From: an archaeon
Lineage (GTDB): Archaea; Nanobdellota; Nanobdellia; Woesearchaeales; GW2011-AR9
Direction of reading: 5' to 3'
DNA: 33,303 nt
Assembly (NCBI GenBank): GCA_020053615.1
Contig: JAGVMW010000114.1
Coordinates: 1 to 33,303, forward strand
Made by a program: the position numbers and the translations under genes. Shown here one piece after another: positions 6,969 through 32,779 of the stretch (position 1 is its first letter; every line of letters starts with the position of its first letter). The notes below the pieces were generated by a model. The model worked only from the letters and a program-made list of their open reading frames with translations, had not been told where the DNA came from and did no database searches.

Positions 6969-6981
6969 CTTTATTCTTCCA

Positions 6982-10038: not shown

Positions 10039-10041
10039 TCT

Positions 10042-10497: not shown

Positions 10498-10498
10498 A

Positions 10499-11989: not shown

Positions 11990-11997
11990 TCCTTTTT

Positions 11998-13521: not shown

Positions 13522-13663
13522 TTTCTCGCCCCCTCTTATCTAACTCTGCTTCCATGCACTTCTCAAACTGACGAGATACTATCCAGCCTTCTTTCTTGCA
13601 TATCTCTCTATACTTATCGTAAAGTTCAGAGTTTACTTTCAATGTGATGTTTTTTGTTTTCAT
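13511..13663 (-). CDS. Ribbon-helix-helix (CopG/Arc-like) small protein RHH-1, translationally coupled to hsdM
   Basis: [41 protein letters not shown] has a beta-strand plus two-helix pattern. The ATG at 13663 is preceded by GGTGGGGTGA. The track ORF (to 13693) begins at a GTG and is probably over-extended. A paralog lies at 32630-32779. Confidence 0.7.
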
Positions 13664-13711
13664 TTCACCCCACCTGATAAGAAATACTTGCACATACTTA
13701 TAAATATTACT

Positions 13712-19509: not shown

Positions 19510-20052
19510 ATGGAAATTAAACAAATATTAGATAAAATTGAATCAAATAAAAGCATACAACAATTTCCAAAAACCTCTGGAATTTATGTAATGTATGCAA
19601 AAAATAACATTATTTTTGATTTTATTACAATTAATAAAGGAGAAATAATATATATTGGCAAAAGTGAAAGTTCATTATCTGATAGAAAAACAAAACAACA
19701 TTTTAGTTCTGAAAGTACTGGTCGGTCAACTGTGAGAAGAAGTTTAGGTGCTATCCTAAAAAAAGAATTTGATATAAAATGTTTTTTAAGAGGTAAAGGA
19801 AAATCTAAAAATGATTCTAATTGTTATATATTTGATAAGGAAAGTGAAATCAGATTAACTAATTGGATGAATGAAAATATTTCCATGTCTTTTTTTGTCA
19901 CAAATAATCCAGAAGAAATAGAAGTTAGGTTAATTGCAAAATATAATCCTATTCTAAATCTAAAAGAAGCAGAACATAATTTTATAACACATATCAAAGA
20001 TTTAAGAACTAAATGTAAAGATGAAGCTGAACAAAATGGTGTCTTGAAATGA
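19510..20052 (+). CDS. GIY-YIG nuclease-domain protein
   Basis: SGIYVMYAKNN...EIIYIGKSESSLSDR fits GIY-x(n)-YIG, followed by a conserved Arg region (RSTVRRSLG). Confidence 0.6.
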   Translation: MEIKQILDKIESNKSIQQFPKTSGIYVMYAKNNIIFDFITINKGEIIYIGKSESSLSDRKTKQHFSSESTGRSTVRRSLGAILKKEFDIKCFLRGKGKSKNDSNCYIFDKESEIRLTNWMNENISMSFFVTNNPEEIEVRLIAKYNPILNLKEAEHNFITHIKDLRTKCKDEAEQNGVLK

Positions 20053-20723
20053 ATCCTAAAGAATATGAAGAATATATTGGCGAATATTTCAAAAATAAAG
20101 GGTATGATATTAAAGTAACTTCTTTTACAAATGATTATGGTGTTGATTGTTTTGCTTCAAAAGGAAAAGAAAAGATTGCAGTACAAGTAAAAATGTATGG
20201 TGAGGGTATTAGACCTGTAAATAGAAAAATGATGATGGAATTATATGGTGCAATGCACTATTTTGACTGCAATAAAGCAAAACTTGTAACAAATGGCAGA
20301 ATATTAGATGATGCCAAAGAAGTTGCAGATAAGTTAGGTATTGAAATATTATATGTCGAAGCAGTTGAAAATCATAATTCTAAAACGAAAATAGATGAAA
20401 CTTCTTTTGAATTTATCTGGGAAAGATATATCTTGCCATTAAAAGGAAAAACATTAACTAGAACTAATGGAGATACAAATATAATAAAAGATGTGGATTG
20501 GAGCGGAATAAAAAGAATAACTTCAAATGGCAACACTGCAAAAATAGATATTGAGATTTTCAAACAAGTTATTAACCACTTAAGGAAAAATGGAGAAATT
20601 TCTCGCAAAGAAATCAATGATGATTATTCAGGTAGAGCTTCATCTGGAATATGCTTAATATTATCACAAGTTCCTTTTATTCAATATCACAATAGTCCTT
20701 CAAAATTAATTTGGAGAAAATAA
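20049..20723 (+). CDS. Mrr-cat type restriction endonuclease domain protein with an unknown C-terminal domain
   Basis: YEEYIGEYFKNKGYDIKVTSFTNDYGVDCFASKGKEKIAVQVKMY fits the D...(Q/E)xK PD-(D/E)xK core of Mrr_cat. The start overlaps the upstream stop as ATGA. Confidence 0.65.
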   Translation: MNPKEYEEYIGEYFKNKGYDIKVTSFTNDYGVDCFASKGKEKIAVQVKMYGEGIRPVNRKMMMELYGAMHYFDCNKAKLVTNGRILDDAKEVADKLGIEILYVEAVENHNSKTKIDETSFEFIWERYILPLKGKTLTRTNGDTNIIKDVDWSGIKRITSNGNTAKIDIEIFKQVINHLRKNGEISRKEINDDYSGRASSGICLILSQVPFIQYHNSPSKLIWRK

Positions 20724-21257: not shown

Positions 21258-21509
21258 CTAAATGCTTCCTTGATGCACAAGAATTACAGCACCACCAGAT
21301 ACTATAGTTCTAAGATTTCCCACCTGACGCTGGAAGATTTCACTGCCATTAAAAAATGCAGCGTGTCCGTGAGGGCTACCAATATTTGGATAACCATAGA
21401 TTACATCAGTCCTTACACCACTAGCTGAACCACGATCATTCCAATTGAACCAACCGTCGTTTGTGCGAATACTATTATTTTGGTACATATCTGAACTCTT
21501 TATGAGCAT
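21258..21509 (-). CDS. Hypothetical 83-aa Gly/Asn-rich protein
   Basis: Its start overlaps the stop of the Cas4-like gene as TAATG. I recognise no motif. Confidence 0.4.
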   Translation of the reverse strand: MLIKSSDMYQNNSIRTNDGWFNWNDRGSASGVRTDVIYGYPNIGSPHGHAAFFNGSEIFQRQVGNLRTIVSGGAVILVHQGSI

Positions 21510-22183
21510 TACTTTTTAATTATTTCGCAAGAATTCTGAACCCATTCACAAAACCCACATTCTTCAGAGGGAGCGGGAATTTCAGCTTCTAAAACTTGAA
21601 CAACTTTCTTAAAAATATTCTCGGCGTTCTTGATATTAACTTTAATCTTGATTAAATCCTTATGGAAGTCTACATCACCATTCTCATGGACTTTGCTAGG
21701 ATGGTAAAATAATAGATAAGTATAATCCTCTGTCTCATAGCCATTCTTTCGTAAGAGAAAATTGTAGATATCCATCTGGTCTTGATAATGCTCGTGCGTA
21801 TCTTCTTTTAATGGGTAGCCTCTGGTTTTATAATCTAAAACAATCAGTTTCTTTCCCTTTTGGAGCAGATTATCAATAGCTCCATGAAAGAGATTACCTT
21901 TTTTATCAGTCCATGGTATTCCTTTGAAATTGCTTCTCCAAACTTTGAGGAGTTCTTCATTGTCAAAGAGCTTTACTTCACCTTTTAATTGTTGAAGTTC
22001 TGGAGGCAATTCTCCTCTTTTCATAAAGCGGTCAAAATGTTCTTTGAGAATTTTATCCATTCCACTCGGAAGAGATGGGAAAATGGAATCTGGACGTTTA
22101 ATGTTCTTGTTTAAAGCAAGCCAGAAACATCTAGGGCAATCTTTCAGTAAGCTTAGGCTTGATGGGCTGAATTTGTAGGTCAT
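21509..22183 (-). CDS. Cas4/RecB-like PD-(D/E)xK nuclease with a Cys cluster
   Basis: Motifs are GAIDNL, VLDYKT and QDQMDIY (QxxxY). Cysteines occur at CPRC (N-terminal) and CGFCEWVQNSC (C-terminal), as in Fe-S Cas4/AddB-type nucleases. Confidence 0.75.
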   Translation of the reverse strand: MTYKFSPSSLSLLKDCPRCFWLALNKNIKRPDSIFPSLPSGMDKILKEHFDRFMKRGELPPELQQLKGEVKLFDNEELLKVWRSNFKGIPWTDKKGNLFHGAIDNLLQKGKKLIVLDYKTRGYPLKEDTHEHYQDQMDIYNFLLRKNGYETEDYTYLLFYHPSKVHENGDVDFHKDLIKIKVNIKNAENIFKKVVQVLEAEIPAPSEECGFCEWVQNSCEIIKK

Positions 22184-22184
22184 T

Positions 22185-25100
22185 TTACGAAATAAAATCT
22201 AAAGTTATTAATCTTAATTTCTTCTCATCAAACTCGTCTAAGCCTTCTTTTTCATAAACCAGCTTATCCGAAACAAAATTAGTAACATCTACAATTAGTT
22301 TTTTCCAATTTTTATGTCCTTTTCTATAATTATTCCAAACTTTTCTAATAATTTGAATCCTCTTCTTAGTTAAACTAATGTTAACTAATTTCTTTCTAGT
22401 CTCTTCCCATTGTTTTTCTAATGCATTATCTTCCGGAAAATCTAAAATGTAATCCTCTATATCTCTCTCTATTTCGATAATTAATTGGCTCAGAAACTTT
22501 TTACTTCTTTCCTTACTCCAATCCTGTTGTTTTGTATCTGCTTCTTCCTTTACTCGTATTGAATTATATGTTTCTTTAATATCTTTAAGAATATTGGTGT
22601 TAATATCATATACTTCCTCGAAAAATTTAGGAATAACTCTTTTTTCGCTCTCTTTACAAGAAATAAATTGAAGTATTTCGGTTTTGTTCTTAATTGATTT
22701 TCTCGATTCTAAATCATGCAAATACCAGAAATGGAAATCTTCTCCATATTCATAATAAAAGAAAATTCCCCTAATACTTTTTTTAATCAAACCACTATGA
22801 ATCCCATCAGGCAGGTTTTCTAATTCTTTCATTGAACTTTTCTTGAGGTAAGTTTTCAATGGCTGATAAAAAACTTCTCCTCCACCAAATACGTCAGCTT
22901 CCAATTCATCTAAAACTGAAGATTCTTTATCTTTTATCCTCCTGATTACTCCAAAAACTTTAGGATGGATTTTTTCACCCAAAACAGTCTGATCTAATCC
23001 TACTGACTTATCTATATTGATTATTTTGTTTTGAAGAATGTTAACTAATTTTAATAATTCTTCTAATTCATCTTCTGGGAAGAAATTGTAAATATATATT
23101 TTATCATATAATGAGCCAATCCTGTCAATTCTACCTGCCCGCTGAATCATTCTTGTTGGATTCCAATGCAAATCATAATTTATTAAAATTTGTGCGGTCT
23201 GTAAGTTTTGTCCTTCTGATAATACATCAGTGCTTAGAAGAATGTCTATTTCTTTGTTTTTAAATCGTTCTATAATTTTTTGTCTGTCTTTTGGTGTAAA
23301 ACTGCCAGAACCAGAGATTTTTTGAAGCTTGATGTTTTTGAATTCTTTTTGTTTAGAAAGATAATCATAAACATAATCTAAAGTATCTTTGTAATAAGTA
23401 AAAACTACAATTTGGCTTTTTTCGTGTAATTTCAATAATTTATCTTTAAATTCAAGTAATTTTGCATCTTTATCAGGAGTTAAGTTCTTTATTTTTTCTA
23501 ATATACTCCCTAATAGTTGAATATCAATTTTAATGTCTTTAAACATCTCTTCTTTATTGTAATTATTTATGTTGAATTTATCTAATTGTGCTAGTATCTC
23601 CTGTTCAATTTCTTCTGAATCTTCCTCAAAGTCTTCATCTTCGGCAAGTATATATTTTATTAGTTTAGTATAAGCTTGTTTAGATAAGAATTTTCCTTCT
23701 TCTAAACAATTCATCATTGTCTTTAAGAACTTGATATGACGACTAACGCTAATCCTGAATGCCTCAATACTGCTTTCTAGTCTTTTTAGAAGAATTGTTT
23801 TGAAAATACCGCCTATGGCAATCATACGATTTAAAGCCAAGATTTCTTCTTGCGTTTGCAAATTTTCTTTTTTATATCTAAGAATATTATAATAAGCCAT
23901 AGTCAGCTTTTCGGATATTATGTCCGCAATTTCGCGATACATCCCTTGGTAAGTTTGATTCAGTTTGTAATTGATTGTTTCTAGCTTCCTATCTGGAAAT
24001 GTTATTTTCTGCCCATTAACTGTTGCATTAGGATACTCTTTTTTAATATAATCTCTGGTTCTTCTGATAGAAATTTCATTTAGTAAGTCGTTTAATAATG
24101 CAGGATTGCCTCTCTTATCAATTTCTTTAAAATGGACAAATAAATCAGGAATGTTCTCTTTTATGAATGTTGCATTATCATTTCCAACAAGAAGAAGAAT
24201 CTGTGAATACAAATCCCAAATAGAATTATTGATGGGTGTGGCAGTCATAAAGAGAATTTTAGGTTTTTCACCGTTTTCTTTTGTGATAAACTCAATTAAT
24301 GTGTTCATGTTCTCCCACCTGTTAGAGAGTTGATTTCTAAGATTATGGCTTTCATCAACAATTATTAATTCTACTTCTTCTAAATGCCCGCCAGTGGCAG
24401 TTTTTGCTTTATCTAAGAAGTCTTTAGAAGCTAAATTTTCTTGTGAAAGAATATTTTCAGTAAGTTGCTTATCTTTCAATGCGGGAAGCCACATTGTTTC
24501 CTTTAATTGTGCCGGACAGATAACTAAGCATCTCTTTCTTCTAAAAAAACCAAATTCTTCTAATACTTTAAGCGCAATATATGTTTTACCTAAACCAACC
24601 GAATCAGCAACCATGACTGCCCCATATTTTTTTAAACGTGAGAAGACTCTTTGAACAGCATCACTTTGAAATTCGGTTAATTCAACATTTGAAATACCAC
24701 TTTTGTCTTTCTTTTTTTCTTCTTCCTCTGATTCTGCGGCTATTTCATCTTTTTGCAGTTCATAAAGTGATTTTATATAAATTTGAAATGGAGTGTATTC
24801 TGTAGTTCCAAATCTTGAATTTTTGAGTAAAGTGATTAATTGCTCTTTAAATTCTAAAGATTCTTTCCAGAATTTATTGAACCAGTTTTCTCTACTATAT
24901 TCAACAAACATTTTACCCTGCTGAACAGTGTTATATTCTCCTTCTCTTGTAAGCCCAGCATAAGTAAAATTGGAAGAGCCACTAACCACTAATTTATCAA
25001 AAATATAAGTTTTTCCATGCAATAGGTTTTTGTCATAAATTCTGATTTCCACATTATGTTTTTCTAAAAAAGTAATTAAATCAGTAACATGGTCTTTCTT

Positions 25101-25391
25101 TTCTTTTGTAAGACCTAACTCTGCAATTTCTGTTTCTACTACTTTCAGCAGGGCTTTTCCTAAAGTCTGATTGTTATCCGTAAGTTCGGGGGATTTTCCA
25201 AGAAGCAAGCGAAATTTAGTAACTCCTTCTAATTTTTCTTTAACCAAAGCATACCCCTCCACGTTAAAGAATGCGGTAGCAATATCTAAATTAGTATTGG
25301 GATCTAAATGGAGAACTTTGTTTAGGAAAACAGACAGTTTTATGTTGTTGTTATCAACAATGTTTTCGTCAATCATCATTTGAATACCCAT
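22185..25391 (-). CDS. PLD-nuclease domain fused to an SNF2-family helicase
   Basis: The N-terminal LLHGKTYIFDKLVVSGSSN is an HxK..D..GSxN PLD motif. SNF2 motifs are GLGKT, IVDESHNLRN, TATPINN, LSEGQNLQ and QRAGRIDRIG. The likely start is the ATG at 25379, in an ATGA overlap with the upstream stop. Confidence 0.9.
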   Translation of the reverse strand: MGIQMMIDENIVDNNNIKLSVFLNKVLHLDPNTNLDIATAFFNVEGYALVKEKLEGVTKFRLLLGKSPELTDNNQTLGKALLKVVETEIAELGLTKEKKDHVTDLITFLEKHNVEIRIYDKNLLHGKTYIFDKLVVSGSSNFTYAGLTREGEYNTVQQGKMFVEYSRENWFNKFWKESLEFKEQLITLLKNSRFGTTEYTPFQIYIKSLYELQKDEIAAESEEEEKKKDKSGISNVELTEFQSDAVQRVFSRLKKYGAVMVADSVGLGKTYIALKVLEEFGFFRRKRCLVICPAQLKETMWLPALKDKQLTENILSQENLASKDFLDKAKTATGGHLEEVELIIVDESHNLRNQLSNRWENMNTLIEFITKENGEKPKILFMTATPINNSIWDLYSQILLLVGNDNATFIKENIPDLFVHFKEIDKRGNPALLNDLLNEISIRRTRDYIKKEYPNATVNGQKITFPDRKLETINYKLNQTYQGMYREIADIISEKLTMAYYNILRYKKENLQTQEEILALNRMIAIGGIFKTILLKRLESSIEAFRISVSRHIKFLKTMMNCLEEGKFLSKQAYTKLIKYILAEDEDFEEDSEEIEQEILAQLDKFNINNYNKEEMFKDIKIDIQLLGSILEKIKNLTPDKDAKLLEFKDKLLKLHEKSQIVVFTYYKDTLDYVYDYLSKQKEFKNIKLQKISGSGSFTPKDRQKIIERFKNKEIDILLSTDVLSEGQNLQTAQILINYDLHWNPTRMIQRAGRIDRIGSLYDKIYIYNFFPEDELEELLKLVNILQNKIINIDKSVGLDQTVLGEKIHPKVFGVIRRIKDKESSVLDELEADVFGGGEVFYQPLKTYLKKSSMKELENLPDGIHSGLIKKSIRGIFFYYEYGEDFHFWYLHDLESRKSIKNKTEILQFISCKESEKRVIPKFFEEVYDINTNILKDIKETYNSIRVKEEADTKQQDWSKERSKKFLSQLIIEIERDIEDYILDFPEDNALEKQWEETRKKLVNISLTKKRIQIIRKVWNNYRKGHKNWKKLIVDVTNFVSDKLVYEKEGLDEFDEKKLRLITLDFIS

Positions 25392-25882
25392 CCCTCTTTT
25401 CTAAACATTTCAATCAAGAATATGCATTCAATACCATATTCTTGGCATACATAAGGAACTTTAGTTTTTTTACCACTTATTCTTTCTTCTGAAACAACTA
25501 TTCTTTTTTTTATTGTTTCAATTAATGTTTTTTGAGCGTCTGCCTCCATCTCAATAGCAAGCGCAATAACAAAAGGATCTGCAATAGGAACCATACTATC
25601 TTCATTTAACCATTTAGGATATTTGGCTAATAATTCTTGAACAATTTGGATCTGTCTAGGTGTTAAATCTTTAAACAGCTTTGTCTGTTTTTTAGACCAT
25701 TCTTTCAGGTGGTCGTCTCCCCTTTCAATTTCTTTTAAAACTTCTTTTGGTGAAACTAAAAATCCACTTTCAATTAACGATTCTATTTTTTGCCAAACAG
25801 GAGGAAAAATATCTATGGGATACTTTCTATTTAACTCTATCAGTGAACATGAATCTATCACATAGTAATTTATGGATGTCAT
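25376..25882 (-). CDS. DUF4411 (PIN-like) protein
   Basis: YVIDSCSLIELNRKYPIDIFPPVWQKIESLIESGFLVSPKEVLKEIERGDDHLKEW matches the DUF4411 pattern. It has a 4-nt overlap with the upstream ImmA gene. Confidence 0.75.
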   Translation of the reverse strand: MTSINYYVIDSCSLIELNRKYPIDIFPPVWQKIESLIESGFLVSPKEVLKEIERGDDHLKEWSKKQTKLFKDLTPRQIQIVQELLAKYPKWLNEDSMVPIADPFVIALAIEMEADAQKTLIETIKKRIVVSEERISGKKTKVPYVCQEYGIECIFLIEMFRKEGWVFK

Positions 25883-27018
25883 TTGGAAGTCCTTTTTATT
25901 ACTTTTTCAAAATATTTGGTTTTTATTGATAGATAACTCAATGCATCGCTGTATGTGATAAATCCTTTATCCATGTTATCAGCAACCAAAGAAGGTAGTT
26001 TATGCCCTAATTCTGCAATGCATTTCTGGTCTTGAGTTCGCGGATCAACGATTTTGTGTTTTCCTTCAGCTTTAACGGGTATAGGTCTCTCCAGAATTGA
26101 TTTGTAGATTGATTGAGTAATAAAATTAAGATTAAACATATTATAAACAAGCATCGCTTTACTGACTTTGTATTTTCTTTTTAGTGTATTTAACGTATTT
26201 GTTTCTGTTAATGATTCTTTTTTCTGTGAAAATACTGAATTTGCCAATTCTGCTGGAAGTAAGAAATTTGACGCAAACAGGTTACACCATTTCTCAATCT
26301 TATCCTGTGTTTGAAATTCCGTTAAAGAGATTGCAGTCTCTCCAAGTAAAACATGCCCAAACTCGTGCATCAATGTAAATATTCTAGCTTCAATCTCATC
26401 CTGAGAGTTGGTCACTACAATTTTAGGATCTTTATCTGATAACGCAAAACCTCTTGCATCTTCTATGGGCATCGATATTTGAAATGAATAAATGTTTTTC
26501 TCTTCAAGCATTTCTCTTAAATAAGAATATACTTTGTAGGCATCTTTTAATTCAGTGGTTTGCTTTTCTACTGAAAAAAATAATAGTTCCCTATACTTAG
26601 TTGCTATCTGCTGCGGGTTATCCGTAATTTTATGTAATGTGATTTTAGGTTTCAAATCATTTTCAATATTTATGGCAAGCTCTTGGATGATTCCCTGTAA
26701 ATATCTTGCTTTTCTAATTGCCAAAATTGTCTTTTTGTTAAATTTTCCTTCTTTTCCTGGAAGCATACGGTAATCTTTTGGTTTTGGCTTCTCTTCAGGC
26801 GCTTTGGGCAGGAAGAATACAGCTAAAGGTCTTTTTAATTTATCTGCAAGAGCTTCTAATTGTTTTATGGTAATATTTCCTTTTAACCAATCTTTATATA
26901 TTGCTTCAGAAATATTTAGTTTTGAAATTAGTTCAGACTCATCCCAACCGGAAGTACTGATTGCCCATTTGATGACTTCAGGCTTTATTTGTATTTTTAC
27001 GGGTTTAGTTTTTGGCAT
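25879..27018 (-). CDS. XRE-type HTH fused to an ImmA/IrrE (M78, COG2856) metallopeptidase
   Basis: The zinc site HEFGH occurs in LMHEFGHVLL. The N-terminal HTH region reads ELISKLNISEAIYKDWLKG. Confidence 0.8.
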   Translation of the reverse strand: MPKTKPVKIQIKPEVIKWAISTSGWDESELISKLNISEAIYKDWLKGNITIKQLEALADKLKRPLAVFFLPKAPEEKPKPKDYRMLPGKEGKFNKKTILAIRKARYLQGIIQELAINIENDLKPKITLHKITDNPQQIATKYRELLFFSVEKQTTELKDAYKVYSYLREMLEEKNIYSFQISMPIEDARGFALSDKDPKIVVTNSQDEIEARIFTLMHEFGHVLLGETAISLTEFQTQDKIEKWCNLFASNFLLPAELANSVFSQKKESLTETNTLNTLKRKYKVSKAMLVYNMFNLNFITQSIYKSILERPIPVKAEGKHKIVDPRTQDQKCIAELGHKLPSLVADNMDKGFITYSDALSYLSIKTKYFEKVIKRTSK

Positions 27019-27075
27019 TTTGTACCTTGTAAATGTAATATTCTTTATGGTTATCTGTACTTTGTATATTAAAGT

Positions 27076-27570
27076 TTATATTGTTTTTCTTATCAAAGCG
27101 ATTAAGTAAGTATAAACCATATGTCCTGACTCAGCCACTTTTATCTTTAGTTCTTGTAACTTAGTTCTATCTGCAATTAAATCAATTTTAAATCTATTAT
27201 CTGACTTATTATTTATTCTTCTTAATTTTATTTCGATAATAACATAGGGATTATTAAAGCCATATCCTTTTGAGGGTAGAGGAAAATGCCCGCCCTTCTT
27301 TGTTATGAGTTGGGAGACATCAAAAATAACAATATCTGATCTGCACTTTAACTTTTTAGAGCGACCATACCACCTAACTTCACAATGCACCGGAATTGAT
27401 TGCTGATTATCTTCTGTTTGTTCCAAACCGTTAAAATCAGCAAGAAGTAAATGATAAAGATAGGCTCTAACATCTTCTTCAGTTAAGAATTTATCAGGAG
27501 TAGCTTTAAATTCATCTATTAAAGTATTAATCTTTTGTTCTACTTTTACTTTGATTTGTTGATTTTCCAT
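27076..27570 (-). CDS. Hypothetical protein with a PD-(D/E)xK nuclease-like motif
   Basis: HCEVR...RSDIVIFD...PYVIIEIKLRR fits E...D...ExK spacing. The call rests on the motif alone. Confidence 0.4.
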   Translation of the reverse strand: MENQQIKVKVEQKINTLIDEFKATPDKFLTEEDVRAYLYHLLLADFNGLEQTEDNQQSIPVHCEVRWYGRSKKLKCRSDIVIFDVSQLITKKGGHFPLPSKGYGFNNPYVIIEIKLRRINNKSDNRFKIDLIADRTKLQELKIKVAESGHMVYTYLIALIRKTI

Positions 27571-27572
27571 CT

Positions 27573-28112
27573 TTAACTCAATAGCCCAAAAAACAATGGT
27601 ACGTATTTTAGGGATATACCTGCCACTATTTTCAGTAGTTCAAGAGCATTTTCTCCGCTTTCTTTTAGGGTATTAAATTTTTCTAGTATATTAAATAAGC
27701 CCTTTTTCTTTTCTGAGTCTAATTCAGAGTCTTGCTCTATCATCTGTTTTAAAATGTAATGTTTTGAGTTGTTAATTACAATGGTATTACCGTCTCCTGC
27801 GGATTGAACTACATTCCCAATTGAAGAGTTTATTATCTGTTGAGATATGTTCTGGTCAATATCAACTAACGGTCTTTTGCCACAGGCGATTTCTAAACCT
27901 TTGGCAGTAACTTTATTCCAAATCATGCCTACAAGACCTCTTGCCAGAGTTTCTGTGTATTGAACCGCTCCAATTTCTTTAAGATATTCAAGAACATCAC
28001 ACACTTCTTCTTCATTAATCTTTAATTTTTCAGGAAGTTCTTCTACTTTGATTCTATCATCAGCTAATAATTTCAATACCGGTTCAGCTAAATGTATGGT
28101 TTTGGCATTCAT
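27573..28112 (-). CDS. Hypothetical protein with a possible N-terminal wHTH and a hydrophobic C-terminus
   Basis: EEVCDVLEYLKEIGAVQY is wHTH-like. The C-terminal IVAGISLKYVPLFFGLLS is hydrophobic. The gene is tightly packed in the operon, with 1-2 nt gaps. Confidence 0.45.
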   Translation of the reverse strand: MNAKTIHLAEPVLKLLADDRIKVEELPEKLKINEEEVCDVLEYLKEIGAVQYTETLARGLVGMIWNKVTAKGLEIACGKRPLVDIDQNISQQIINSSIGNVVQSAGDGNTIVINNSKHYILKQMIEQDSELDSEKKKGLFNILEKFNTLKESGENALELLKIVAGISLKYVPLFFGLLS

Positions 28113-28113
28113 T

Positions 28114-28938
28114 TTATTTTTTAAACAGTTCTCTTATATCTTTACTTCCAACTAGCTTTACGTTGTTAAAATGTTGGGGGTATTCTTCTCTAGTTAAAGT
28201 TATTAAATAATTAACCATGTACCATTTCAATCCATTATTCTCACTTTTCGCATTTGCTAAATGAATATAAGCATTTCTTGATTCCCTAATAATGTCTAAA
28301 CAATTATGTTTGTTAATATAACTATACTTTTTTAAGTATCTTTTGCCTTTTGTACCAACTAAAGCCGGAGTTTTATCGATTTTATATTTTTGAATAAAAG
28401 AAAGATAACCTTCCTTAAGAGATTTATTAGACGCATGGAATAGTTTAATACATTCATGAAATTTGAATGTTTCTGAGGAGAAATTTGAACTAATATCTTT
28501 CTTTGCATCATAATAAATCTTATTTAATTTGGATTGGGTTAATTGTGAGATTTTATTTAATTTATCCAATTTCATGGTGTATTTCTGAGAAAATTTGTTT
28601 GACAACATTTTGTTCAAACCAGTAAAAACACCATTTTTTCTGTCAAGCCCAACACACCTATCGGTTTTGTTTATAATGAAATTTCTTTTAAGTAAGATGA
28701 GTTTGACTAAGTGTTCTGCAGTTGAACCAATTAAATTCATTTTCTGAAGATGATAAGCTCTTGATTGGTAAAATTTCTGTTTTTGTCCTTGATTATAGGA
28801 AACAACTTTTTTATTTAACAAAATTTTGACTAATTTAAGATTTTCTTTGATTAAAGCTATATAAGTATCTACTACTATTGGTTGATATAAAAGTATATCA
28901 AATTTATCTTTCGAAATTTCCCATTGTTTTAGTTTCAT
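28114..28938 (-). CDS. Hypothetical helical protein with an RNxxxH motif, possibly HEPN (Abi_2/AbiD-F-like)
   Basis: IIRESRNAYIHLANA contains Rx4H in the RNxxxH form seen in several HEPN RNases. An upstream helix reads GSTAEHLVKLILLK. The call rests on the motif alone. Confidence 0.4.
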   Translation of the reverse strand: MKLKQWEISKDKFDILLYQPIVVDTYIALIKENLKLVKILLNKKVVSYNQGQKQKFYQSRAYHLQKMNLIGSTAEHLVKLILLKRNFIINKTDRCVGLDRKNGVFTGLNKMLSNKFSQKYTMKLDKLNKISQLTQSKLNKIYYDAKKDISSNFSSETFKFHECIKLFHASNKSLKEGYLSFIQKYKIDKTPALVGTKGKRYLKKYSYINKHNCLDIIRESRNAYIHLANAKSENNGLKWYMVNYLITLTREEYPQHFNNVKLVGSKDIRELFKK

Positions 28939-31900
28939 TTTTTCAAACTCGTCGCTTTGTTTAATCTTTGCTGTACTAACTCACAGACAGCCCAATATAC
29001 TTCTTTTCTTTCTTCTTTGGTTAATCCCAATTCATCAAAGATGATATTGTCAAGTTCTGCTCGGTCTGGAAGAGGCTTTGGCTCTTGTTCACGGATGGGT
29101 TTGGTGGGGTCGATGCCGAGTTCTTCAAATATTGATTTTACTTCTCTTGTAAAAAATTTATTAATATTATATTTTGAAAAATTCAATTTTTGGAGCGATA
29201 CCATTGGGATTTTATTAGCATCCATTGTAGCTAAATCCAGAGCACCCTGACCTAAATTTGAACGTCCATAAATTTCAATAAATAAAGCAGTAAATGTAGA
29301 GTTAAGAAGTAATGAAAAGTACTTTGGATTTACTTCTTTTTTTAGTTTTATCATGTGAAAGCGACGGTCACTTAATGCTTTCTTTTCCGAATATGGATGA
29401 ATAAACCGGTCATTATACCCATATAACATAAAGCAATTTGTGAACTCAACATTAGAAATAGACCACCAGCCCGGTTTTCTATTTACTACGGTTGGAACTT
29501 CTGGCCATGGGATTCCTGCTTTGACTTTACCTTTCTCTTTTGTCTCTTGTCTCTCTCCCCATTCTATATACTTTAAAGCATTGTTATGGTCCTTTGATTT
29601 CAGCGAGTTCTTAGATTCATTACAAATAAAAACAAATTTTTTGTTGATATATTTATTTAAACTAATGCACTTAACATCCTGAGGAGATTTAATCAATGGG
29701 ATAAGATAATCAGTCTCAATTTTCCATTTTTTTACTTGTTCTTCGTTCAAATAAAAGAAATCATTTATCCCGCTGTAAAGTCCCGTATCCACTTTACCGT
29801 ATAATTCTTTTAATACTCCAACATCCTTCTTACTGAGTATACTAAAAACTATGTCTGGAGAACGCAAGAACTTACTCCCCCACTTATTTCCTTCATAACT
29901 CCCTTTGCCAAACCTTCCATTTTCATACCCTTCTGGATATTCCCAACCATCTTCCAGCAAATCTTCCTGATTAATGGGATAAACCCTAAACTCATTTGTT
30001 TTCAGTATCTTCTCTGCTTTCTCAATCTTAACCAGATTAGCCGCATTAACCACTTCCTCAAATGGCTTCTTGAACATCACAAAGCGAGCAGTTTGACTAA
30101 ATCCAGAATATGTCGCTTTTCCATTGCCATTATACTCAGCGCCATACTCAAATAATGATTTTTGCTTGCCAATTACCGGCGCACCCAAAAGTGCAATAAT
30201 TGTATTTACATCAGCATGCTCAAAGCTTCGTTTGGCTTGATTGTCATAAATTCCAATAACGTGCGAATATCTTAACAAAAACTCCTGCAACCCCTTCCCA
30301 TAACCCACATCCAGCCAAGAATTAGAGGTAATAAAACAAAACACTCCACCAGAATTAAGCAAACTCAATCCGTGAAAGTAAAAATAGACATACAAATCGC
30401 TTTTCTTATCCCAATCAATAACGACAGGAAACCTATTTTGAACGGATTTAATCAATTTCTCTTTATATCCTCGTCTATCTTCAAGTGTAACCTCTTCTTT
30501 AAGCTTATTTGGCGGAGCAATCTTCTCCTGCCGCACATACGGCGGATTGCCAATCACAATATCAAACCCGCCTTCATCTGCAAATACTTCCGCAAAATCA
30601 ATATCCCAAACAAATGGTTTCTTGGCAGGATCTTTCAATAACTCTTTTACTTTCTTTAATTTCTCAATTTCATCAGCACATTCTTTTATCCGGTTTTCAA
30701 GCTCAATTAAATTCTTCTTCTCTTTTTTGATATTCTCCGCATCAATATTAACTGAAGCGCCAAATAAGCCCGTTTGCTTCTCTTTCTTACTTGAAGAATG
30801 GGTTAAGACTTGAATATCAGTCTCTAATGATTCTATCCGTTCATTCAAAATCTCTTCAAATAATCTAACCTCTTGCACTTTAAACTCTTCTGGAGTCTTA
30901 TATTTTGCTGAGGGAGAATTTTCAAAATATCTTCTTTTCTCATTTTTCAACTCTTCCAGTTTTTTCTTTAAATGCGGCTTCAGATTATTGCTTCGCACAT
31001 TAAAGCTGATTCCACCAATTTCCTGCACTAATGAATCACCAACACGCAGATTCATGTTTAAATTTGGTAATAACGGATGTTTCCTTAATTCTTCATCTTT
31101 AAATTGTGTTTCCACAATCAACTGAAGCCATAATCTTAATTCTGAGGCATGAATTGCCCAGGGCATGACATCTACCCCATATAGAGAACGTTGGATTATC
31201 CTATACTTTAATTGGAAGTCGCTTAAGCTAGAACCAATATGCTTAAACACAATTTTATACAATTCTACCAAGACATTAAGCATCCCTACTAAAAATGCCC
31301 CCGAACCACAGGCAGGATCAACAATAGAAAGATTATCCAACGCTTCCTCTATTTTACCCCAGCATTTACGCTGATTGAACTTCTTCTCAATTTTCTCTTT
31401 ATCTTCATCAAATACAAACTCGTATAATTCCTCTTTAGGTATCTCTAAATTCTTTCCTAGATACTCTACTAAAGACCTTCGACACATAAAATCTACTTCT
31501 ACTTTAGCAGTATAGAATATACCCCAATCCCCACGCAAATCTTCTTCATTTTCATAAACATCCTCTGTAATATTAGCCAGAGACTCATAAACATAACCAA
31601 TCATTTGAGGATCAACGGAGACTTCTACATCTAATACAGAATCTTCTTTGATGGTAAAATTGTAGCTTTCGAAGAAGTCAAATATCTCTTTAAAGAGATT
31701 ATCAGATATGTTTATCTTTAAGTCGTCTAACCCTATTTTTTTAGTAAATAAGCCGCCATTAAGATAGGGACTATTTGACAATATTTTATTTACTTCCTCG
31801 GGAAGTTCAGGATGATAACTGGATTTATTATTAAAAGCCTCAAAGAACAGAGGTTTTAACCATTTATCATAAAATTCATTATTTCCATATTTACTAATTC

Positions 31901-32672
31901 GTTTATATAAATCCCAATATGCCTGCATAAATTTTCTATCTTTATTCAGCCATTCTTTCTTAGCTATAAAATAAATGAACATAATTCTATTCATAAATTG
32001 TAATGTAAATTCATGGGCTATTTTCGGGTCTACCTTCTGTTTTTTGAGTTCTTTTCTCACCACTAAAAATAGTCTTTGATAATCCTCAAAAAATTTCTTA
32101 GTAACTTTCTGAACATCAAACGCCTCTTTCCATAACCGCCAGAGTTCTCGCCATGTTTTCTTTTGGTCTTCCAGAAATATATTGCAAATTATCTCAATAT
32201 CTGTATAATAAAGCTCATCTTTTTTCAATATTAATGTGGTTGTTTTAAGTTTATGTTTTCCTACCTCCTGCTTTTCGTAATCTGGAAACACAATATGTAT
32301 CTCTTTATAATCGATTGTAATAATTAAGAGACATCGCGTGTACATTTCAGCGAATTTGTTTGCGATATATCGCATAAGAGGCTTACTAAGAGAGTTAGTT
32401 TCAATTAAGAAGACATTGAGTTTATCATAACTCATAACTGTGTAAATTGTTTTAATTTTGTCTCGTTCTTCACTGGCAAAAGAAAATTCTTTTATCTTTT
32501 TAACATAAGATGAATCAAAAATTGCTTCTTTTGGATAATTTAGACTCTTAAACAAACCATATATATCCTCTGAATTCTTTATGAAAGAGATATAATCTTT
32601 AACTTTCTTTCGGAGATCTGAATTATTATTCACTTTTCCCGCCCCCTCTTCTCTAACTCTGCTTCCATGCAT
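28935..32672 (-). CDS. Large N6-adenine DNA methyltransferase, Eco57I/type IIG- or PglX-like
   Basis: Motif I is IVDPACGSGAFLVGML and motif IV is VIGNPPYV, with a coiled-coil insert between them and a long C-terminal region. I could not identify a clear N-terminal nuclease motif. The more likely start is the GTG at 32633, in a GTGA overlap with the RHH-2 stop, rather than the ATG at 32672. Confidence 0.8.
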   Translation of the reverse strand: MHGSRVREEGAGKVNNNSDLRKKVKDYISFIKNSEDIYGLFKSLNYPKEAIFDSSYVKKIKEFSFASEERDKIKTIYTVMSYDKLNVFLIETNSLSKPLMRYIANKFAEMYTRCLLIITIDYKEIHIVFPDYEKQEVGKHKLKTTTLILKKDELYYTDIEIICNIFLEDQKKTWRELWRLWKEAFDVQKVTKKFFEDYQRLFLVVRKELKKQKVDPKIAHEFTLQFMNRIMFIYFIAKKEWLNKDRKFMQAYWDLYKRISKYGNNEFYDKWLKPLFFEAFNNKSSYHPELPEEVNKILSNSPYLNGGLFTKKIGLDDLKINISDNLFKEIFDFFESYNFTIKEDSVLDVEVSVDPQMIGYVYESLANITEDVYENEEDLRGDWGIFYTAKVEVDFMCRRSLVEYLGKNLEIPKEELYEFVFDEDKEKIEKKFNQRKCWGKIEEALDNLSIVDPACGSGAFLVGMLNVLVELYKIVFKHIGSSLSDFQLKYRIIQRSLYGVDVMPWAIHASELRLWLQLIVETQFKDEELRKHPLLPNLNMNLRVGDSLVQEIGGISFNVRSNNLKPHLKKKLEELKNEKRRYFENSPSAKYKTPEEFKVQEVRLFEEILNERIESLETDIQVLTHSSSKKEKQTGLFGASVNIDAENIKKEKKNLIELENRIKECADEIEKLKKVKELLKDPAKKPFVWDIDFAEVFADEGGFDIVIGNPPYVRQEKIAPPNKLKEEVTLEDRRGYKEKLIKSVQNRFPVVIDWDKKSDLYVYFYFHGLSLLNSGGVFCFITSNSWLDVGYGKGLQEFLLRYSHVIGIYDNQAKRSFEHADVNTIIALLGAPVIGKQKSLFEYGAEYNGNGKATYSGFSQTARFVMFKKPFEEVVNAANLVKIEKAEKILKTNEFRVYPINQEDLLEDGWEYPEGYENGRFGKGSYEGNKWGSKFLRSPDIVFSILSKKDVGVLKELYGKVDTGLYSGINDFFYLNEEQVKKWKIETDYLIPLIKSPQDVKCISLNKYINKKFVFICNESKNSLKSKDHNNALKYIEWGERQETKEKGKVKAGIPWPEVPTVVNRKPGWWSISNVEFTNCFMLYGYNDRFIHPYSEKKALSDRRFHMIKLKKEVNPKYFSLLLNSTFTALFIEIYGRSNLGQGALDLATMDANKIPMVSLQKLNFSKYNINKFFTREVKSIFEELGIDPTKPIREQEPKPLPDRAELDNIIFDELGLTKEERKEVYWAVCELVQQRLNKATSLKK

Positions 32673-32779
32673 TTCTCAAACTGACGAGAAACTATCCAGC
32701 CTTCTTTTTTGCATAACTCCCTATAGGTATCATACAATTTTGAATTAACTTTCAAAGTGATATTCTTACTCTCTTCCAT
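32630..32779 (-). CDS. Ribbon-helix-helix small protein RHH-2, a paralog of 13511-13663; not in the supplied ORF track
   Basis: My manual translation gives [49 protein letters not shown]. In my alignment 40 of 44 core residues are identical to RHH-1. The gene is preceded by GAGGGAATGA. Confidence 0.7.
   Translation of the reverse strand: MEESKNITLKVNSKLYDTYRELCKKEGWIVSRQFEKCMEAELEKRGREK

What the first reader, a model, noticed from the sequence alone, without database searches (positions are those of the whole stretch)
27076..32672. A type IIG/PglX-like methyltransferase is followed by three tightly coupled small unknown genes with HEPN-like and PD-(D/E)xK-like motifs
The 1245-aa enzyme has clear gamma-type motifs: DPACGSGAF, then NPPY after a coiled-coil insert. 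I cannot find a convincing endonuclease motif in its N-terminal region. Cleavage may therefore be supplied in trans by the 164-aa protein (E...DIVIFD...EIK). The 274-aa protein carries SRNAYIH, an RNxxxH form of the HEPN Rx4-6H motif, which would add an RNase arm. The 179-aa protein looks like a wHTH with a hydrophobic tail. This four-gene arrangement is not one I recognise.
Basis: inference. Interest (0 to 1): 0.7.

Follow-up and report, generated by a model that had tools for sequence, protein, structure and literature searches.

The report
Methylase–helicase-nuclease defence operon with cargo genes
The four genes are the front half of a nine-gene restriction-like defence operon in which a DNA methylase works with a helicase-nuclease encoded further downstream, and the three small genes are swappable add-ons of a kind already described for related systems, not a fixed new four-gene machine.

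Summary
The ORFs, the motifs and the tight gene coupling are all at the stated coordinates.

The unit is larger than reported. It is a nine-gene minus-strand operon (32779→21509): RHH regulator, Eco57I/PglX-type methyltransferase, HEPN-like 274-aa, wHTH 179-aa, PD-(D/E)xK-like 164-aa, M78 peptidase, DUF4411, HKD(PLD)–Swi2/Snf2 helicase-nuclease, Cas4-like nuclease.

In all 11 distinct full-length relatives examined (DPANN archaea, cyanobacteria, Deinococcus, Rhodococcus, Halorubrum), the methyltransferase's constant partner is the HKD–Snf2 protein. The genes between the two differ from locus to locus, from none to about six.

- **274-aa protein:** belongs to a new family with invariant Ex3K and RNxYxH motifs, so it is probably HEPN. 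Fold support is weak.
- **164-aa protein:** has invariant D…ExK and a nuclease-like fold. It is missing from most related systems and also occurs alone elsewhere. In this window one missing T truncates it; restoring that base gives 188 aa.
- **Cleavage:** most likely supplied by the HKD–Snf2 protein, not by the 164-aa protein.

The closest described systems are Type-2 BREX-related and Hma systems. The DUF499 ATPase and DUF3780 that define Type-2 BREX-related systems are absent here. I rate this a new variant of a known kind, of moderate interest.

The parts
32630..32779 (-). 49-aa ribbon-helix-helix-like small gene, the first gene of the operon and probably a controller or regulator. Its TGA stop overlaps the likely GTG start of the methyltransferase.
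   Evidence: Sequence read. Homologous 49-54-aa ORFs precede the methyltransferase in L009, L016, L017, L019-L022 and L024. There is a weak Pfam match to RepB-RCR_reg (E=0.007).
28935..32633 (-). Eco57I/type IIG/PglX-like gamma-class N6-adenine DNA methyltransferase with a C-terminal target-recognition region. It is 1232 aa from GTG 32633; the maximal ORF runs from 32672 (1245 aa). No nuclease domain is detectable. Motif I (DPACGSGAF) lies at 31293-31319 and motif IV (NPPY) at 30537-30548. The variable TRD lies at about 29124-29861.
   Evidence: Pfam Eco57I 3.6e-32 and MmeI_Mtase 1.8e-9. PADLOC REase_MTase_IIG 2e-58. N-terminal residues 1-190 hit no family; the C-terminal part matches M_Eco57I_C at 2.8e-4. 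Relatives are 75-79% identical except at residues ~925-1170. D70/E78 are not conserved in bacterial homologues.
28114..28938 (-). 274-aa all-helical protein, a member of a new HEPN-like family and a predicted metal-independent RNase. The Ex3K motif (AEHLVK) lies at 28702-28719 and the Rx4H motif (SRNAYIH) at 28261-28281. It is cargo, not part of the core.
   Evidence: The family has 48 members. E75, K79, R221, Y224, H226 and E233 are invariant, and N222 is present in at least 90%. AF2 pLDDT is 91.6. Sub-threshold Pfam hits to HEPN families occur in 10 of 30 members, the best being Ribonuc_2-5A at 6e-5. The top PDB profile hit is HepS (E=0.21), aligned over the motif. The top Foldseek hit is a HEPN toxin, but at E=0.6. 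Local GC is 27%.
27573..28112 (-). 179-aa protein with an N-terminal winged-helix-like domain, a Q/N/S-rich linker and a highly conserved C-terminal ~60 residues (…FNTLKESGENA…KYVPLFF). Probably a DNA-binding regulator or adaptor. It is cargo.
   Evidence: The family has 27 members. Conservation is in alignment A3. Weak wHTH hits come from Pfam (TFIIE_alpha, TrmB; E~0.01) and from a PDB profile search (ZitR/MarR 0.006, TFE 0.019). It is found next to different partners.
27005..27570 (-). PD-(D/E)xK-like small nuclease gene. The ORF as called (27570..27076, 164 aa) is truncated because one T is missing from the run at 27095-27097. Restoring it gives a family-typical 188-aa protein that ends at 27005, overlapping the M78 start. 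It is cargo.
   Evidence: The family has 61 members of ~181-194 aa. H62, E64, D79, E113 and K115 are invariant, and the near-invariant C-terminal FDKK is lost here. AF2 pLDDT is 91.6, an α/β fold. Foldseek top hits are PD-(D/E)xK nucleases, but all have E>=0.03.
25879..27018 (-). 379-aa protein with a Peptidase_M78 (ImmA/IrrE) domain, RmrA-like, paired with the next gene. It is cargo.
   Evidence: Pfam Peptidase_M78 6e-17. PADLOC RmrA 8e-18.
25376..25882 (-). 168-aa DUF4411 (PIN-like) protein that overlaps the M78 gene by ATGA. It is the likely toxin or effector partner of the M78 protein. It is cargo.
   Evidence: Pfam DUF4411 3e-31, and a weak PIN_9 match. The junction was read.
22185..25379 (-). 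N-terminal HKD (phospholipase-D-type) nuclease fused to a Swi2/Snf2 helicase. It is 1064 aa from the ATG that overlaps the DUF4411 stop. This is the conserved partner of the methyltransferase and the probable restriction effector.
   Evidence: Pfam PLDc_2, SNF2-rel_dom and Helicase_C. PADLOC 'HKD+Snf2' 1e-56 and DrmD 2e-43. The motifs H125xK127xxxxD132…GSSN, Walker A GLGKT and DESH are intact. It is present in every full-length relative.
21509..22183 (-). 224-aa Cas4-like PD-(D/E)xK nuclease with C-terminal cysteines, 1 nt downstream of the helicase. It is an accessory found in only some relatives.
   Evidence: Pfam PDDEXK_1 7e-13. PADLOC Cas4 1e-10. It is also present in L009/L018 but not detected in the other relatives.

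Best explanation
The finding is the 5' half of one nine-gene operon (32779→21509, minus strand) in a defence island, probably of a DPANN-type archaeon.

The conserved core is a two-component, ATP-dependent restriction-modification-like system, preceded by a small RHH regulator.
- A large Eco57I/PglX-type N6-adenine methyltransferase carries its own variable target-recognition region. It marks host DNA.
- An HKD(PLD)-nuclease–Swi2/Snf2-helicase fusion translocates on DNA and cuts DNA that lacks the mark.

The interval between these two genes is an insertion hotspot that holds different auxiliary defence genes in different genomes. In this window it holds:
- a new HEPN-family RNase (274 aa), most likely a second-line or backup effector of the PrrC type, embedded in an R-M operon;
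- a wHTH protein (179 aa), probably a regulator or adaptor;
- a small PD-(D/E)xK nuclease gene, which is frameshifted here;
- an M78-peptidase/DUF4411 (PIN-like) pair.

Shown: the gene content, the motif conservation, the core-versus-cargo pattern and the frameshift. Inferred: the enzymatic activities, and the functional coupling of the cargo to the core.
For: **Domains.** assign the domains.

**One operon.** All junctions are overlaps or spacers of at most 2 nt. The single exception is a 57-nt gap, and the frameshift created it.

**Core versus cargo among DPANN-type relatives**:
- L024: MTase, DUF365 protein, helicase.
- L002: MTase, 164-homologue, M78, DUF4411, helicase.
- L009: MTase, 179-homologue, 164-homologue, M78, DUF4411, helicase, Cas4-like.
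- L015: MTase, unknown 372-aa protein, AAA_14/DUF4143 ATPase, helicase.
- L017: MTase, unknown 213-aa protein, wHTH-like protein, DUF488 protein, 264-aa protein, helicase.
- L020: MTase split by a Schlafen/AlbA_2 insertion, then other cargo, then the helicase.

**Same pair on bacterial and haloarchaeal plasmids.** The helicase matches 685 plasmid records. All five inspected have an Eco57I-type large MTase directly upstream, with 0-3 different genes in between (sigma-70-like; DUF262 plus RelA/SpoT-like; SMODS plus SLATT; none; none).

**Boundaries.** Flanks of the relatives are housekeeping genes, so the system is bounded by the RHH/MTase and the helicase.

**HEPN support.**

**Precedent.** HEPN genes embedded in R-M operons, and the PrrC model, are in PMC3710099. 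Auxiliary and backup HEPN, REase, PIN and Schlafen effectors inside BREX/BR loci are in PMC12839542. An insertion hotspot inside hma operons is in PMC11232893.
Against: - No activity was tested. Methylation, ATP-dependent cleavage and RNase activity are all inferred from domains.
- Structural support for HEPN is not significant (Foldseek E=0.6). For PD-(D/E)xK the best E is 0.03.
- Functional coupling of cargo to core is not shown. The same cargo families occur without the core, which fits independent modules equally well.
- Only about a dozen loci were inspected. No genome-wide census was done.
- The methyltransferase N-terminal ~190 residues remain unassigned and could hide an unrecognised activity.
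Confidence: 0.65

Rival explanations
1. The cargo genes are autonomous modules (toxin-antitoxin or abortive-infection type). On this reading the HEPN protein, the wHTH protein, the small nuclease and M78/DUF4411 have simply lodged in a permissive intergenic hotspot. They gain co-transcription and co-transfer but have no physical or regulatory link to the methyltransferase–helicase pair.
For: - Each family occurs without the core. The 164-aa family is found alone or beside Cap4 or Shedu-type nucleases.
- The 179-aa family occurs with M78/DUF4411 only, with DUF488, or alone.
- A 274-aa homologue sits inside a type I R-M operon.
- In L013/L014 the wHTH–M78–DUF4411 trio survives next to a 40-aa relic of the methyltransferase C-terminus, with no helicase present.
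- The HEPN gene has lower GC (27%) than its neighbours.
Against: - Translational coupling to the core genes is tight.
- Both contexts known for the 274-aa family are R-M operons.
- In L015 and L017, proteins bearing an RNxxxH motif sit immediately after the methyltransferase. This is motif-level evidence only.
- Published surveys argue that such embedding is recurrent rather than incidental.
Confidence: 0.28
2. The methyltransferase and the three small genes form a dedicated four-gene system. In it the 164-aa PD-(D/E)xK protein supplies DNA cleavage in trans, and the HEPN protein adds an RNase arm.
For: - The methyltransferase has no detectable nuclease domain.
- The D…ExK motif is invariant in the 164-aa family.
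- The four genes are tightly coupled.
Against: - The four-gene set is found only in this window.
- The 164-aa gene is absent from L015, L017, L020, L024 and all five plasmid loci.
- The 164-aa gene is frameshifted here.
- An intact HKD–Snf2 nuclease-helicase is the invariant neighbour in every full-length relative examined.
Confidence: 0.04
3. The methyltransferase is a conventional single-chain type IIG enzyme whose N-terminal domain is a highly diverged but active endonuclease. The HKD–Snf2 protein would then be a separate, independent defence gene.
For: - PADLOC type IIG REase-MTase profiles give the best hits.
- An N-terminal domain of about 190 aa is conserved from archaea to cyanobacteria.
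Against: - The N-terminus hits no nuclease family.
- The candidate acidic residues are not conserved, and the Deinococcus homologue lacks most of the domain.
- Strict adjacency with HKD–Snf2 across distant phyla argues for a two-protein system.
Confidence: 0.05

Closest known systems
Type-2 BREX-related (BR) systems (Rakesh & Krishnan, NAR 2026, PMC12839542)
   Same: Both have a large N6-adenine methyltransferase and a helicase with an N-terminal HKD endoDNase fused to a Swi2/Snf2 core. Both are proposed to work like R-M systems. Both loci carry embedded HEPN, REase, PIN or Schlafen auxiliary effectors.
   Different: BR systems are defined as DUF499-centred, and Type-2 carries DUF3780 in 98% of taxa. 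Neither gene is present in the window or in the flanks of six relatives. The system here is a two-gene core plus an RHH gene.
Hma system / Type-1 BR (HmaA Snf2 helicase-nuclease, HmaB methylase, HmaC ATPase; PMC11232893)
   Same: Both combine a Snf2 helicase-nuclease with a methyltransferase. A hotspot for inserted defence genes inside the operon is documented for Hma. There is a partial PADLOC HmaA hit at 8e-32.
   Different: The HmaA nuclease is a C-terminal PD-(D/E)xK domain, whereas here it is an N-terminal HKD domain. There is no HmaC/DUF499 ATPase here.
Type ISP and type III restriction-modification enzymes (established knowledge; Loenen et al. 2014, cited)
   Same: Both combine a methyltransferase-TRD module with an SF2 ATPase and a nuclease for ATP-dependent restriction. 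Here the functions are split over two proteins, as with type III Mod/Res.
   Different: The ATPase is Swi2/Snf2 rather than Rad25-like or type ISP-like. The nuclease is HKD/PLD rather than PD-(D/E)xK or Mrr. The methyltransferase is Eco57I/PglX-like.
PrrC–EcoprrI and other HEPN genes embedded in R-M operons (Anantharaman et al. 2013, PMC3710099)
   Same: A HEPN RNase gene sits inside an R-M operon and is interpreted as a second-line effector held in check by the R-M proteins. The 274-aa family has the Rx4H motif with N after R, and an upstream Ex3K.
   Different: The 274-aa protein has no ABC-ATPase regulatory domain and matches no existing Pfam HEPN family above threshold. Its coupling to the R-M proteins is untested.
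Class 1 DISARM (DrmMI + DrmD + DrmA/B/C)
   Same: The methyltransferase hits DrmMI profiles and the helicase hits DrmD profiles. A PLD nuclease activity is present.
   Different: There is no DrmA or DrmB (DUF1998). Here PLD is fused to the Snf2 protein. The NCBIfam DrmD score is 185 bits against a cut-off of 610.

Membership tests
Type IIG restriction-modification enzyme (MmeI/Eco57I type) | Gamma-class N6-adenine methyltransferase domain (motif I before motif IV NPPY) with a C-terminal TRD in one chain | tested here: met
   Pfam Eco57I 3.6e-32 and MmeI_Mtase 1.8e-9. M_Eco57I_C matches at 2.8e-4. The hypervariable segment lies at ~925-1170.
Type IIG restriction-modification enzyme (MmeI/Eco57I type) | Endonuclease domain fused in the same polypeptide | tested here: not met
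   Residues 1-190 hit no Pfam family even at E<=10. D70/E78 are replaced by G/Q in cyanobacterial homologues, and the domain is largely missing in the Deinococcus homologue. The fold of this domain was not modelled.
BREX (PglX as part of a BREX system) | PglZ phosphatase and BrxC/PglY ATPase in the locus; PglX above the family cut-off | tested here: not met
   NCBIfam PglX models score 22-63 bits against cut-offs of 400-900. No PglZ or BrxC domain occurs in any ORF of the window.
Type-2 BREX-related (BR) system | N6-methyltransferase plus a helicase with an N-terminal HKD endoDNase and a Swi2/Snf2 core | tested here: met
   PLDc_2 lies at aa 34-175 and is followed by SNF2/Helicase_C. The HKD motif is intact.
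Type-2 BREX-related (BR) system | DUF499 AAA+ ATPase as the core component | tested here: not met
   No DUF499 hit occurs in any operon protein or any large ORF of the window. None occurs in the Pfam-annotated L002 and L009 contexts. The flanks of L015, L020 and L024 are housekeeping genes. Only ~0.5 kb upstream of the operon is available in the window itself.
Type-2 BREX-related (BR) system | Stand-alone DUF3780 gene in the locus (98% of taxa) | tested here: not met
   No DUF3780 hit occurs among the window operon proteins or the cargo proteins of relatives.
Class 1 DISARM | DrmA helicase and DrmB (DUF1998) together with DrmMI, DrmD and DrmC | tested here: not met
   There are only partial DrmD and DrmMI profile hits. 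No DUF1998 protein occurs in the window.
HEPN superfamily (274-aa protein) | Rx4-6H motif with a polar residue after R, conserved across the family | tested here: met
   R221, Y224 and H226 are invariant and N222 is present in at least 90% of 30 sequences that are 21-55% identical to the window protein.
HEPN superfamily (274-aa protein) | Upstream conserved acidic residue, typically as Ex3[KR], in an N-terminal helix | tested here: met
   E75 and K79 are invariant and lie in predicted helix 50-84.
HEPN superfamily (274-aa protein) | All-alpha up-down helical bundle fold with significant similarity to known HEPN structures or profiles | tested here: inconclusive
   The model is helical with pLDDT 91.6. 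The top Foldseek hit is the HEPN toxin 7ae9, but at E=0.6 and TM 0.18-0.31. The top PDB profile hit is HepS at E=0.21. Pfam HEPN-clan hits occur in 10 of 30 members, the best at 6e-5, and none in the window protein itself.
PD-(D/E)xK nuclease superfamily (164-aa protein) | Conserved D…(D/E)xK residues on adjacent beta-strands of an alpha/beta core | tested here: met
   D79, E113 and K115 (plus H62 and E64) are invariant in 25 sequences. They lie on predicted strands 74-83 and 108-117.
PD-(D/E)xK nuclease superfamily (164-aa protein) | Significant structural or profile similarity to known members | tested here: inconclusive
   There are no Pfam, PADLOC or NCBIfam hits. No Foldseek hit has E<=0.001. 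Even so, nearly all named top hits are PD-(D/E)xK nucleases: arenavirus endonuclease, NucC, BstEII, Cas4 and phage exonucleases.
Winged helix-turn-helix (179-aa protein) | Profile similarity of the N-terminal ~80 residues to wHTH DNA-binding domains | tested here: inconclusive
   Pfam TFIIE_alpha and TrmB match at E~0.006-0.02, below their cut-offs. A PDB profile search gives ZitR/MarR at 0.006-0.013, TFE at 0.019, and ArsR/SmtB at 0.1-0.6. No structure was predicted.
Rosmer-like / ImmA-IrrE two-gene module (M78 + DUF4411) | M78 zinc-peptidase protein (RmrA-like) paired with an adjacent toxin gene | tested here: met
   Peptidase_M78 6e-17 and DUF4411 3e-31. RmrA profiles match down to 8e-18. 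The two genes overlap by ATGA. The pair recurs in L002, L009 and L013. Whether DUF4411 is an RmrT-type toxin was not tested.

The most novel reading that the evidence does not exclude
The Eco57I-type methyltransferase plus HKD–Swi2/Snf2 pair, with neither DUF499 nor DUF3780, is an unnamed minimal ATP-dependent restriction system. It is widespread in bacteria and archaea. Its inter-gene gap acts as a dedicated docking site for second-line effectors. The new HEPN family found here, and also inside a type I R-M operon, is a guard RNase. It is held inactive by the R-M proteins and released when a virus inhibits them.
Probability: 0.25. Interest if true: 0.6.

Novelty: new variant of a known kind. 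Interest (0 to 1): 0.4.

Why it matters
If the reading is right, this locus adds a minimal two-protein relative to the Hma, BREX-related and DISARM group of Snf2-based restriction systems. That relative is found from DPANN archaea to cyanobacteria.

It also shows the same "cargo slot" behaviour between the modification and restriction genes that has been reported for hma operons. Catalogued systematically, the slot could be used to discover new defence genes.

The locus also defines three uncharacterised protein families that have no Pfam model: a HEPN-like, a PD-(D/E)xK-like and a wHTH-plus-C-terminal-domain family. These are concrete candidates for biochemical testing.

It does not reveal a new principle. 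Multi-layered R-M operons with embedded RNases and nucleases are already described.

Tried and rejected
- **Single-sequence family searches.** Pfam, PADLOC, NCBIfam and PHROGs gave nothing above threshold for the three small proteins.
- **Sequence searches against solved structures.** These gave nothing significant for the 164-aa family or the methyltransferase, and only weak hits for the 274-aa and 179-aa families.
- **Foldseek.** Both high-confidence models were searched against PDB, and the 164-aa model also against BFVD. No hit had E<=0.001. I use these only as weak, directionally consistent evidence.
- **Collection scans with the methyltransferase alignment.** The genome and metagenome scans returned few loci (2 and 8), because the back-translated patterns were very specific. 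There is therefore no statistical census.
- **274-aa protein against plasmids.** tblastn found no match.
- **Flanking repeats around the cargo.** None was convincing.
- **Possible further HEPN proteins** (L017 213 aa, L015 372 aa, L001 217 aa). These rest on an RNxxxH-like motif only. They have no profile or PDB support, so I do not count them as evidence.
- **Systems rejected as labels.** BREX, class 1 DISARM and Type-2 BR each lack defining components here.

Full report
**1. Observation**

The quoted motifs are present. DPACGSGAF is at aa 452 and NPPY at aa 709, separated by a Lys/Glu/Leu-rich insert. SRNAYIH is at aa 220 of the 274-aa protein. DIVIFD is at aa 79 and EIK at aa 113 of the 164-aa protein. 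The gene junctions are an ATGA overlap, a 1-nt spacer and a 2-nt spacer.

These are real genes. The three small proteins have 48, 27 and 61 homologues in public data.

Two corrections are needed.
- A 49-aa ribbon-helix-helix-like ORF (32779..32630) ends in a GTGA overlap with a GTG at 32633. Homologous small ORFs precede the methyltransferase in eight related loci. The methyltransferase therefore most likely starts at 32633 and is 1232 aa long.
- The 164-aa ORF is a frameshifted gene (section 3).

**2. The real unit**

Reading on downstream on the same strand, the genes continue without gaps:
- an M78 (ImmA/IrrE, RmrA-like) peptidase, 27018..25879;
- a DUF4411 PIN-like protein, 25882..25376;
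- a 1064-aa protein with an N-terminal PLD/HKD nuclease domain fused to a Swi2/Snf2 helicase, 25379..22185;
- a Cas4-like PD-(D/E)xK nuclease, 22183..21509.

The HKD motif (H125-x-K127-x4-D132…GSSN), Walker A (GLGKT) and DESH are intact. Every junction is an overlap or a spacer of at most 2 nt. The only exception is a 57-nt gap after the 164-aa ORF, and the frameshift created it.

The finding is therefore the front half of a nine-gene operon. That operon sits in a defence island that also carries a type I R-M operon, an Mrr-type nuclease and an IS transposase.

**3. The three small proteins**

*274-aa protein.* No single-sequence family hit was found. A profile search of 1.8 billion representative proteins found 48 relatives. 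In an alignment of 30 of them (21-55% identical to the window protein), E75, K79, R221, Y224, H226 and E233 are invariant, and N222 is present in at least 90%.

This matches the published HEPN signature: Rx4-6H with a polar residue after R, plus an upstream acidic residue that is typically part of Ex3[KR] (PMC3710099).

Further support is weak but consistent.
- The AlphaFold2 model is confident (pLDDT 91.6) and helical.
- Scanning the 30 members one by one against Pfam gave sub-threshold hits to HEPN-clan families in 10 of them: HEPN_Apea ×4, HEPN_RiboL-PSP ×2, DUF4145 ×2, Ribonuc_2-5A at 6e-5, and Abi_2.
- The best PDB profile hit is the HEPN defence protein HepS (E=0.21), aligned across the motif.
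- The top Foldseek hit is a HEPN toxin, but at E=0.6, which is not significant.

I call this protein a probable member of a new HEPN family.

*164-aa protein.* The family (61 hits, mostly 181-194 aa; Nanoarchaeota, CPR bacteria, Elusimicrobia) has invariant H62, E64, D79, E113 and K115, plus a near-invariant C-terminal FDKK. The model is confident (pLDDT 91.6). D79 lies on strand 74-83, and E113/K115 lie on strand 108-117.

No Foldseek hit reaches significance. Even so, the named top hits in both PDB and BFVD are almost all PD-(D/E)xK nucleases: arenavirus cap-snatching endonuclease, NucC, BstEII, Cas4, the R2 restriction-like endonuclease and phage exonucleases.

In the window the protein ends …YLIALIRKTI*, where the family has …YLIAFDKK…. 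The continuation FDKKNNINFNIQSTDNHKEYYIYKVQNAKN* is present in the adjacent frame. Adding one T to the run at 27095-27097 restores a 188-aa protein whose stop overlaps the M78 start. So the gene is either a pseudogene or carries a homopolymer assembly error.

*179-aa protein.* The N-terminal ~80 residues give weak but consistent wHTH matches: Pfam TFIIE_alpha and TrmB at E~0.01, and PDB profile hits to ZitR/MarR at 0.006 and TFE at 0.019. The most conserved part is the C-terminal ~60 residues, ending KYVPLFF. Its function is unknown.

**4.

I compared gene order in every locus fetched.

*Loci with a homologous methyltransferase (54-84% identity over the best-matching segment):*

| Locus | Gene order |
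|---|---|
| L024 | RHH – MTase – DUF365 protein – HKD/Snf2 |
| L002/L003/L023 | MTase – 164-homologue – M78 – DUF4411 – HKD/Snf2 |
| L009-L011/L018 | RHH – MTase – 179-homologue – 164-homologue – M78 – DUF4411 – HKD/Snf2 – Cas4-like |
| L015 | MTase – 372-aa unknown – AAA_14/DUF4143 ATPase – HKD/Snf2 |
| L017 | RHH – MTase – 213-aa unknown – distant 179-like – DUF488 – 264-aa – HKD/Snf2 |
| L020 | RHH – MTase (split by a Schlafen/AlbA_2 and a PRiA4-like gene) – four other genes – HKD/Snf2 |

The 274-aa gene occurs only in the window.

*The small families elsewhere:*
- The 164-aa family occurs alone in housekeeping surroundings or beside Cap4 or Shedu-type nucleases.
- The 179-aa family occurs with M78/DUF4411 only, with a DUF488 protein, or alone.
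- A 274-aa homologue lies inside a type I R-M operon, between hsdM and a GIY-YIG–hsdS gene.

*Wider distribution of the pair.* tblastn of the helicase against 72,556 plasmids hit 685 records. All five records I inspected have an Eco57I-family methyltransferase of 1060-1375 aa directly upstream, with 0-3 different genes in between:

| Host | Genes between MTase and helicase |
|---|---|
| Planktothrix | two hypothetical proteins and a sigma-70-like protein |
| Deinococcus | DUF262 protein, RelA/SpoT-like protein and a small hypothetical protein |
| Microcystis | a small hypothetical protein, SMODS and SLATT |
| Halorubrum | none |
| Rhodococcus | none |

The flanks of the archaeal relatives are tRNA synthetases and other housekeeping genes, so nothing else belongs to the system.

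The conserved unit is therefore (RHH–)methyltransferase + HKD/Snf2. The interval between them is a cargo slot.

**5. The methyltransferase**

It is a gamma-class Eco57I/MmeI/PglX-like enzyme. Three close relatives are 75-79% identical along the whole length except at residues ~925-1170. This is the expected behaviour of a target-recognition domain that is being swapped.

The first 190 residues hit no family. The only D…E pair there is not conserved in cyanobacterial homologues, and the Deinococcus protein lacks most of the domain. The explanation is the partner HKD–Snf2 protein.

**6. Mechanism** (inferred from domains and from established knowledge of ATP-dependent R-M systems)

1. The methyltransferase marks host DNA with m6A at sites read by its own TRD.
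2. The HKD–Snf2 protein, probably recruited by or complexed with the methyltransferase, uses ATP to translocate and cuts unmarked DNA with its PLD-type nuclease.
3. The RHH protein sets the timing of expression.
4. The cargo adds further layers. The HEPN RNase is a candidate PrrC-like backup that fires if the first line is blocked (PMC3710099). M78/DUF4411 is a Rosmer-like or TA-like pair. The small nuclease and the Cas4-like protein may be auxiliary DNases.

An almost equally tenable rival is that the cargo modules are autonomous and merely lodge in the slot. None of these activities was tested.

**7. Comparison with known systems**

The closest published description is the Type-2 "BREX-related" system of Rakesh & Krishnan (PMC12839542). 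It has an N6-methyltransferase, a helicase with an N-terminal HKD fused to Swi2/Snf2, a DUF499 ATPase and DUF3780. The first two features are met here. The two that define the class are absent. I therefore do not file this locus as a member.

- **Hma / Type-1 BR** shares the Snf2-nuclease + methylase logic, and it has a documented insertion hotspot inside the operon. It differs in having a C-terminal REase and a DUF499 ATPase.
- **BREX and class 1 DISARM** fail on PglZ/BrxC and on DrmA/DrmB respectively.
- **Type III and type ISP enzymes.** Functionally the system resembles a split type ISP enzyme or a type III Mod/Res pair, with a different ATPase and a different nuclease.

Embedded HEPN, REase, PIN and Schlafen "auxiliary/backup" effectors are already described for BREX and BR loci.

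**8. Verdict**

The HEPN-like, PD-(D/E)xK-like and wHTH calls are reasonable. The four-gene unit and the trans-nuclease role are not.

The locus is a new variant of a known kind: a minimal methyltransferase + HKD/Snf2 restriction-like pair, with a cargo slot that carries three uncharacterised small families. Interest is moderate (0.4).

Noticed in passing
window 13511-13693 (-) and 32630-32779 (-): A paralogue of the 49-aa RHH gene (phmmer E=2e-26) sits immediately upstream of, and overlapping, the type I hsdM gene (11998-13521). Both R-M-like operons of this island therefore start with the same small regulator family.
   Followed up: partly
window 3801-13521 (-): A complete type I R-M operon: hsdM 11998-13521, hsdS 7326-8645 and hsdR 3801-6968. 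It also has cargo between its genes: a Schlafen/AlbA_2–HATPase_c_4 protein (10499-11989) and a YhcG/DUF1016 PD-(D/E)xK nuclease (9004-10038). The theme of cargo inside an R-M operon thus occurs twice in the window.
   Followed up: partly
L020 9956-15644: In one relative the methyltransferase gene is split, at the boundary between the catalytic part (917 aa) and the TRD part (322 aa). The split is caused by insertion of a Schlafen/AlbA_2–HATPase_c_4–HTH gene and a PRiA4_ORF3-like gene. It is unclear whether the two halves still work as separate M and S-like subunits.
   Followed up: partly
L013 9873-12184 and L014 8222-10533: A 40-aa relic of the methyltransferase C-terminus (E=1e-17) directly precedes a 179-homologue–M78–DUF4411 trio. 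No methyltransferase or helicase is nearby. Either the core was deleted and the cargo survived, or the cargo moves together with the 3' end of the methyltransferase gene.
   Followed up: partly
L001 6020-8995: The only other context with substantial flanking sequence for the 274-aa family (the third member's contig is only 2.2 kb) is a type I R-M operon. There the homologue is preceded by a 217-aa protein that also carries an RNxxxH motif (AIRNIFAH), and followed by an HsdS fused to a GIY-YIG nuclease domain. The 217-aa protein has no profile support as a HEPN.
   Followed up: partly
L015 13679-14797 and L017 7006-7647: Unrelated proteins immediately downstream of the homologous methyltransferases carry RNxxxH-like motifs near the C-terminus (RVRNISHH; VRNNLIHH). 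The L017 protein also has N-terminal hydrophobic helices. They may be independent HEPN acquisitions at the same position, but this is motif-level evidence only.
   Followed up: partly
window 29124-29861 (-): The segment at about residues 925-1170 of the methyltransferase is the only part that diverges among relatives that are otherwise 75-79% identical. This suggests recent swapping of target-recognition domains and hence different recognition sequences.
   Followed up: partly
L017 7644-9046 and L025 8001-9244: The 179-aa wHTH family, or a distant relative of it, is twice followed directly by a DUF488 protein. This is a second recurrent pairing besides M78/DUF4411. It hints that the wHTH protein is a generic partner of variable downstream effectors.
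   Followed up: no
window 14056-15471 (-), 18099-18950 (-), 20049-20723 (+): A DDE transposase, a Bro-N domain protein and an Mrr_cat restriction-endonuclease-domain protein lie between the two R-M operons. This is consistent with a mobile, mosaic defence island.
   Followed up: no
L009 114-266: A 50-aa fragment homologous to the Cas4-like nuclease (E=1e-22) lies upstream of the RHH gene in the closest relative. It may be a remnant of a tandem or rearranged copy of the system.
   Followed up: no
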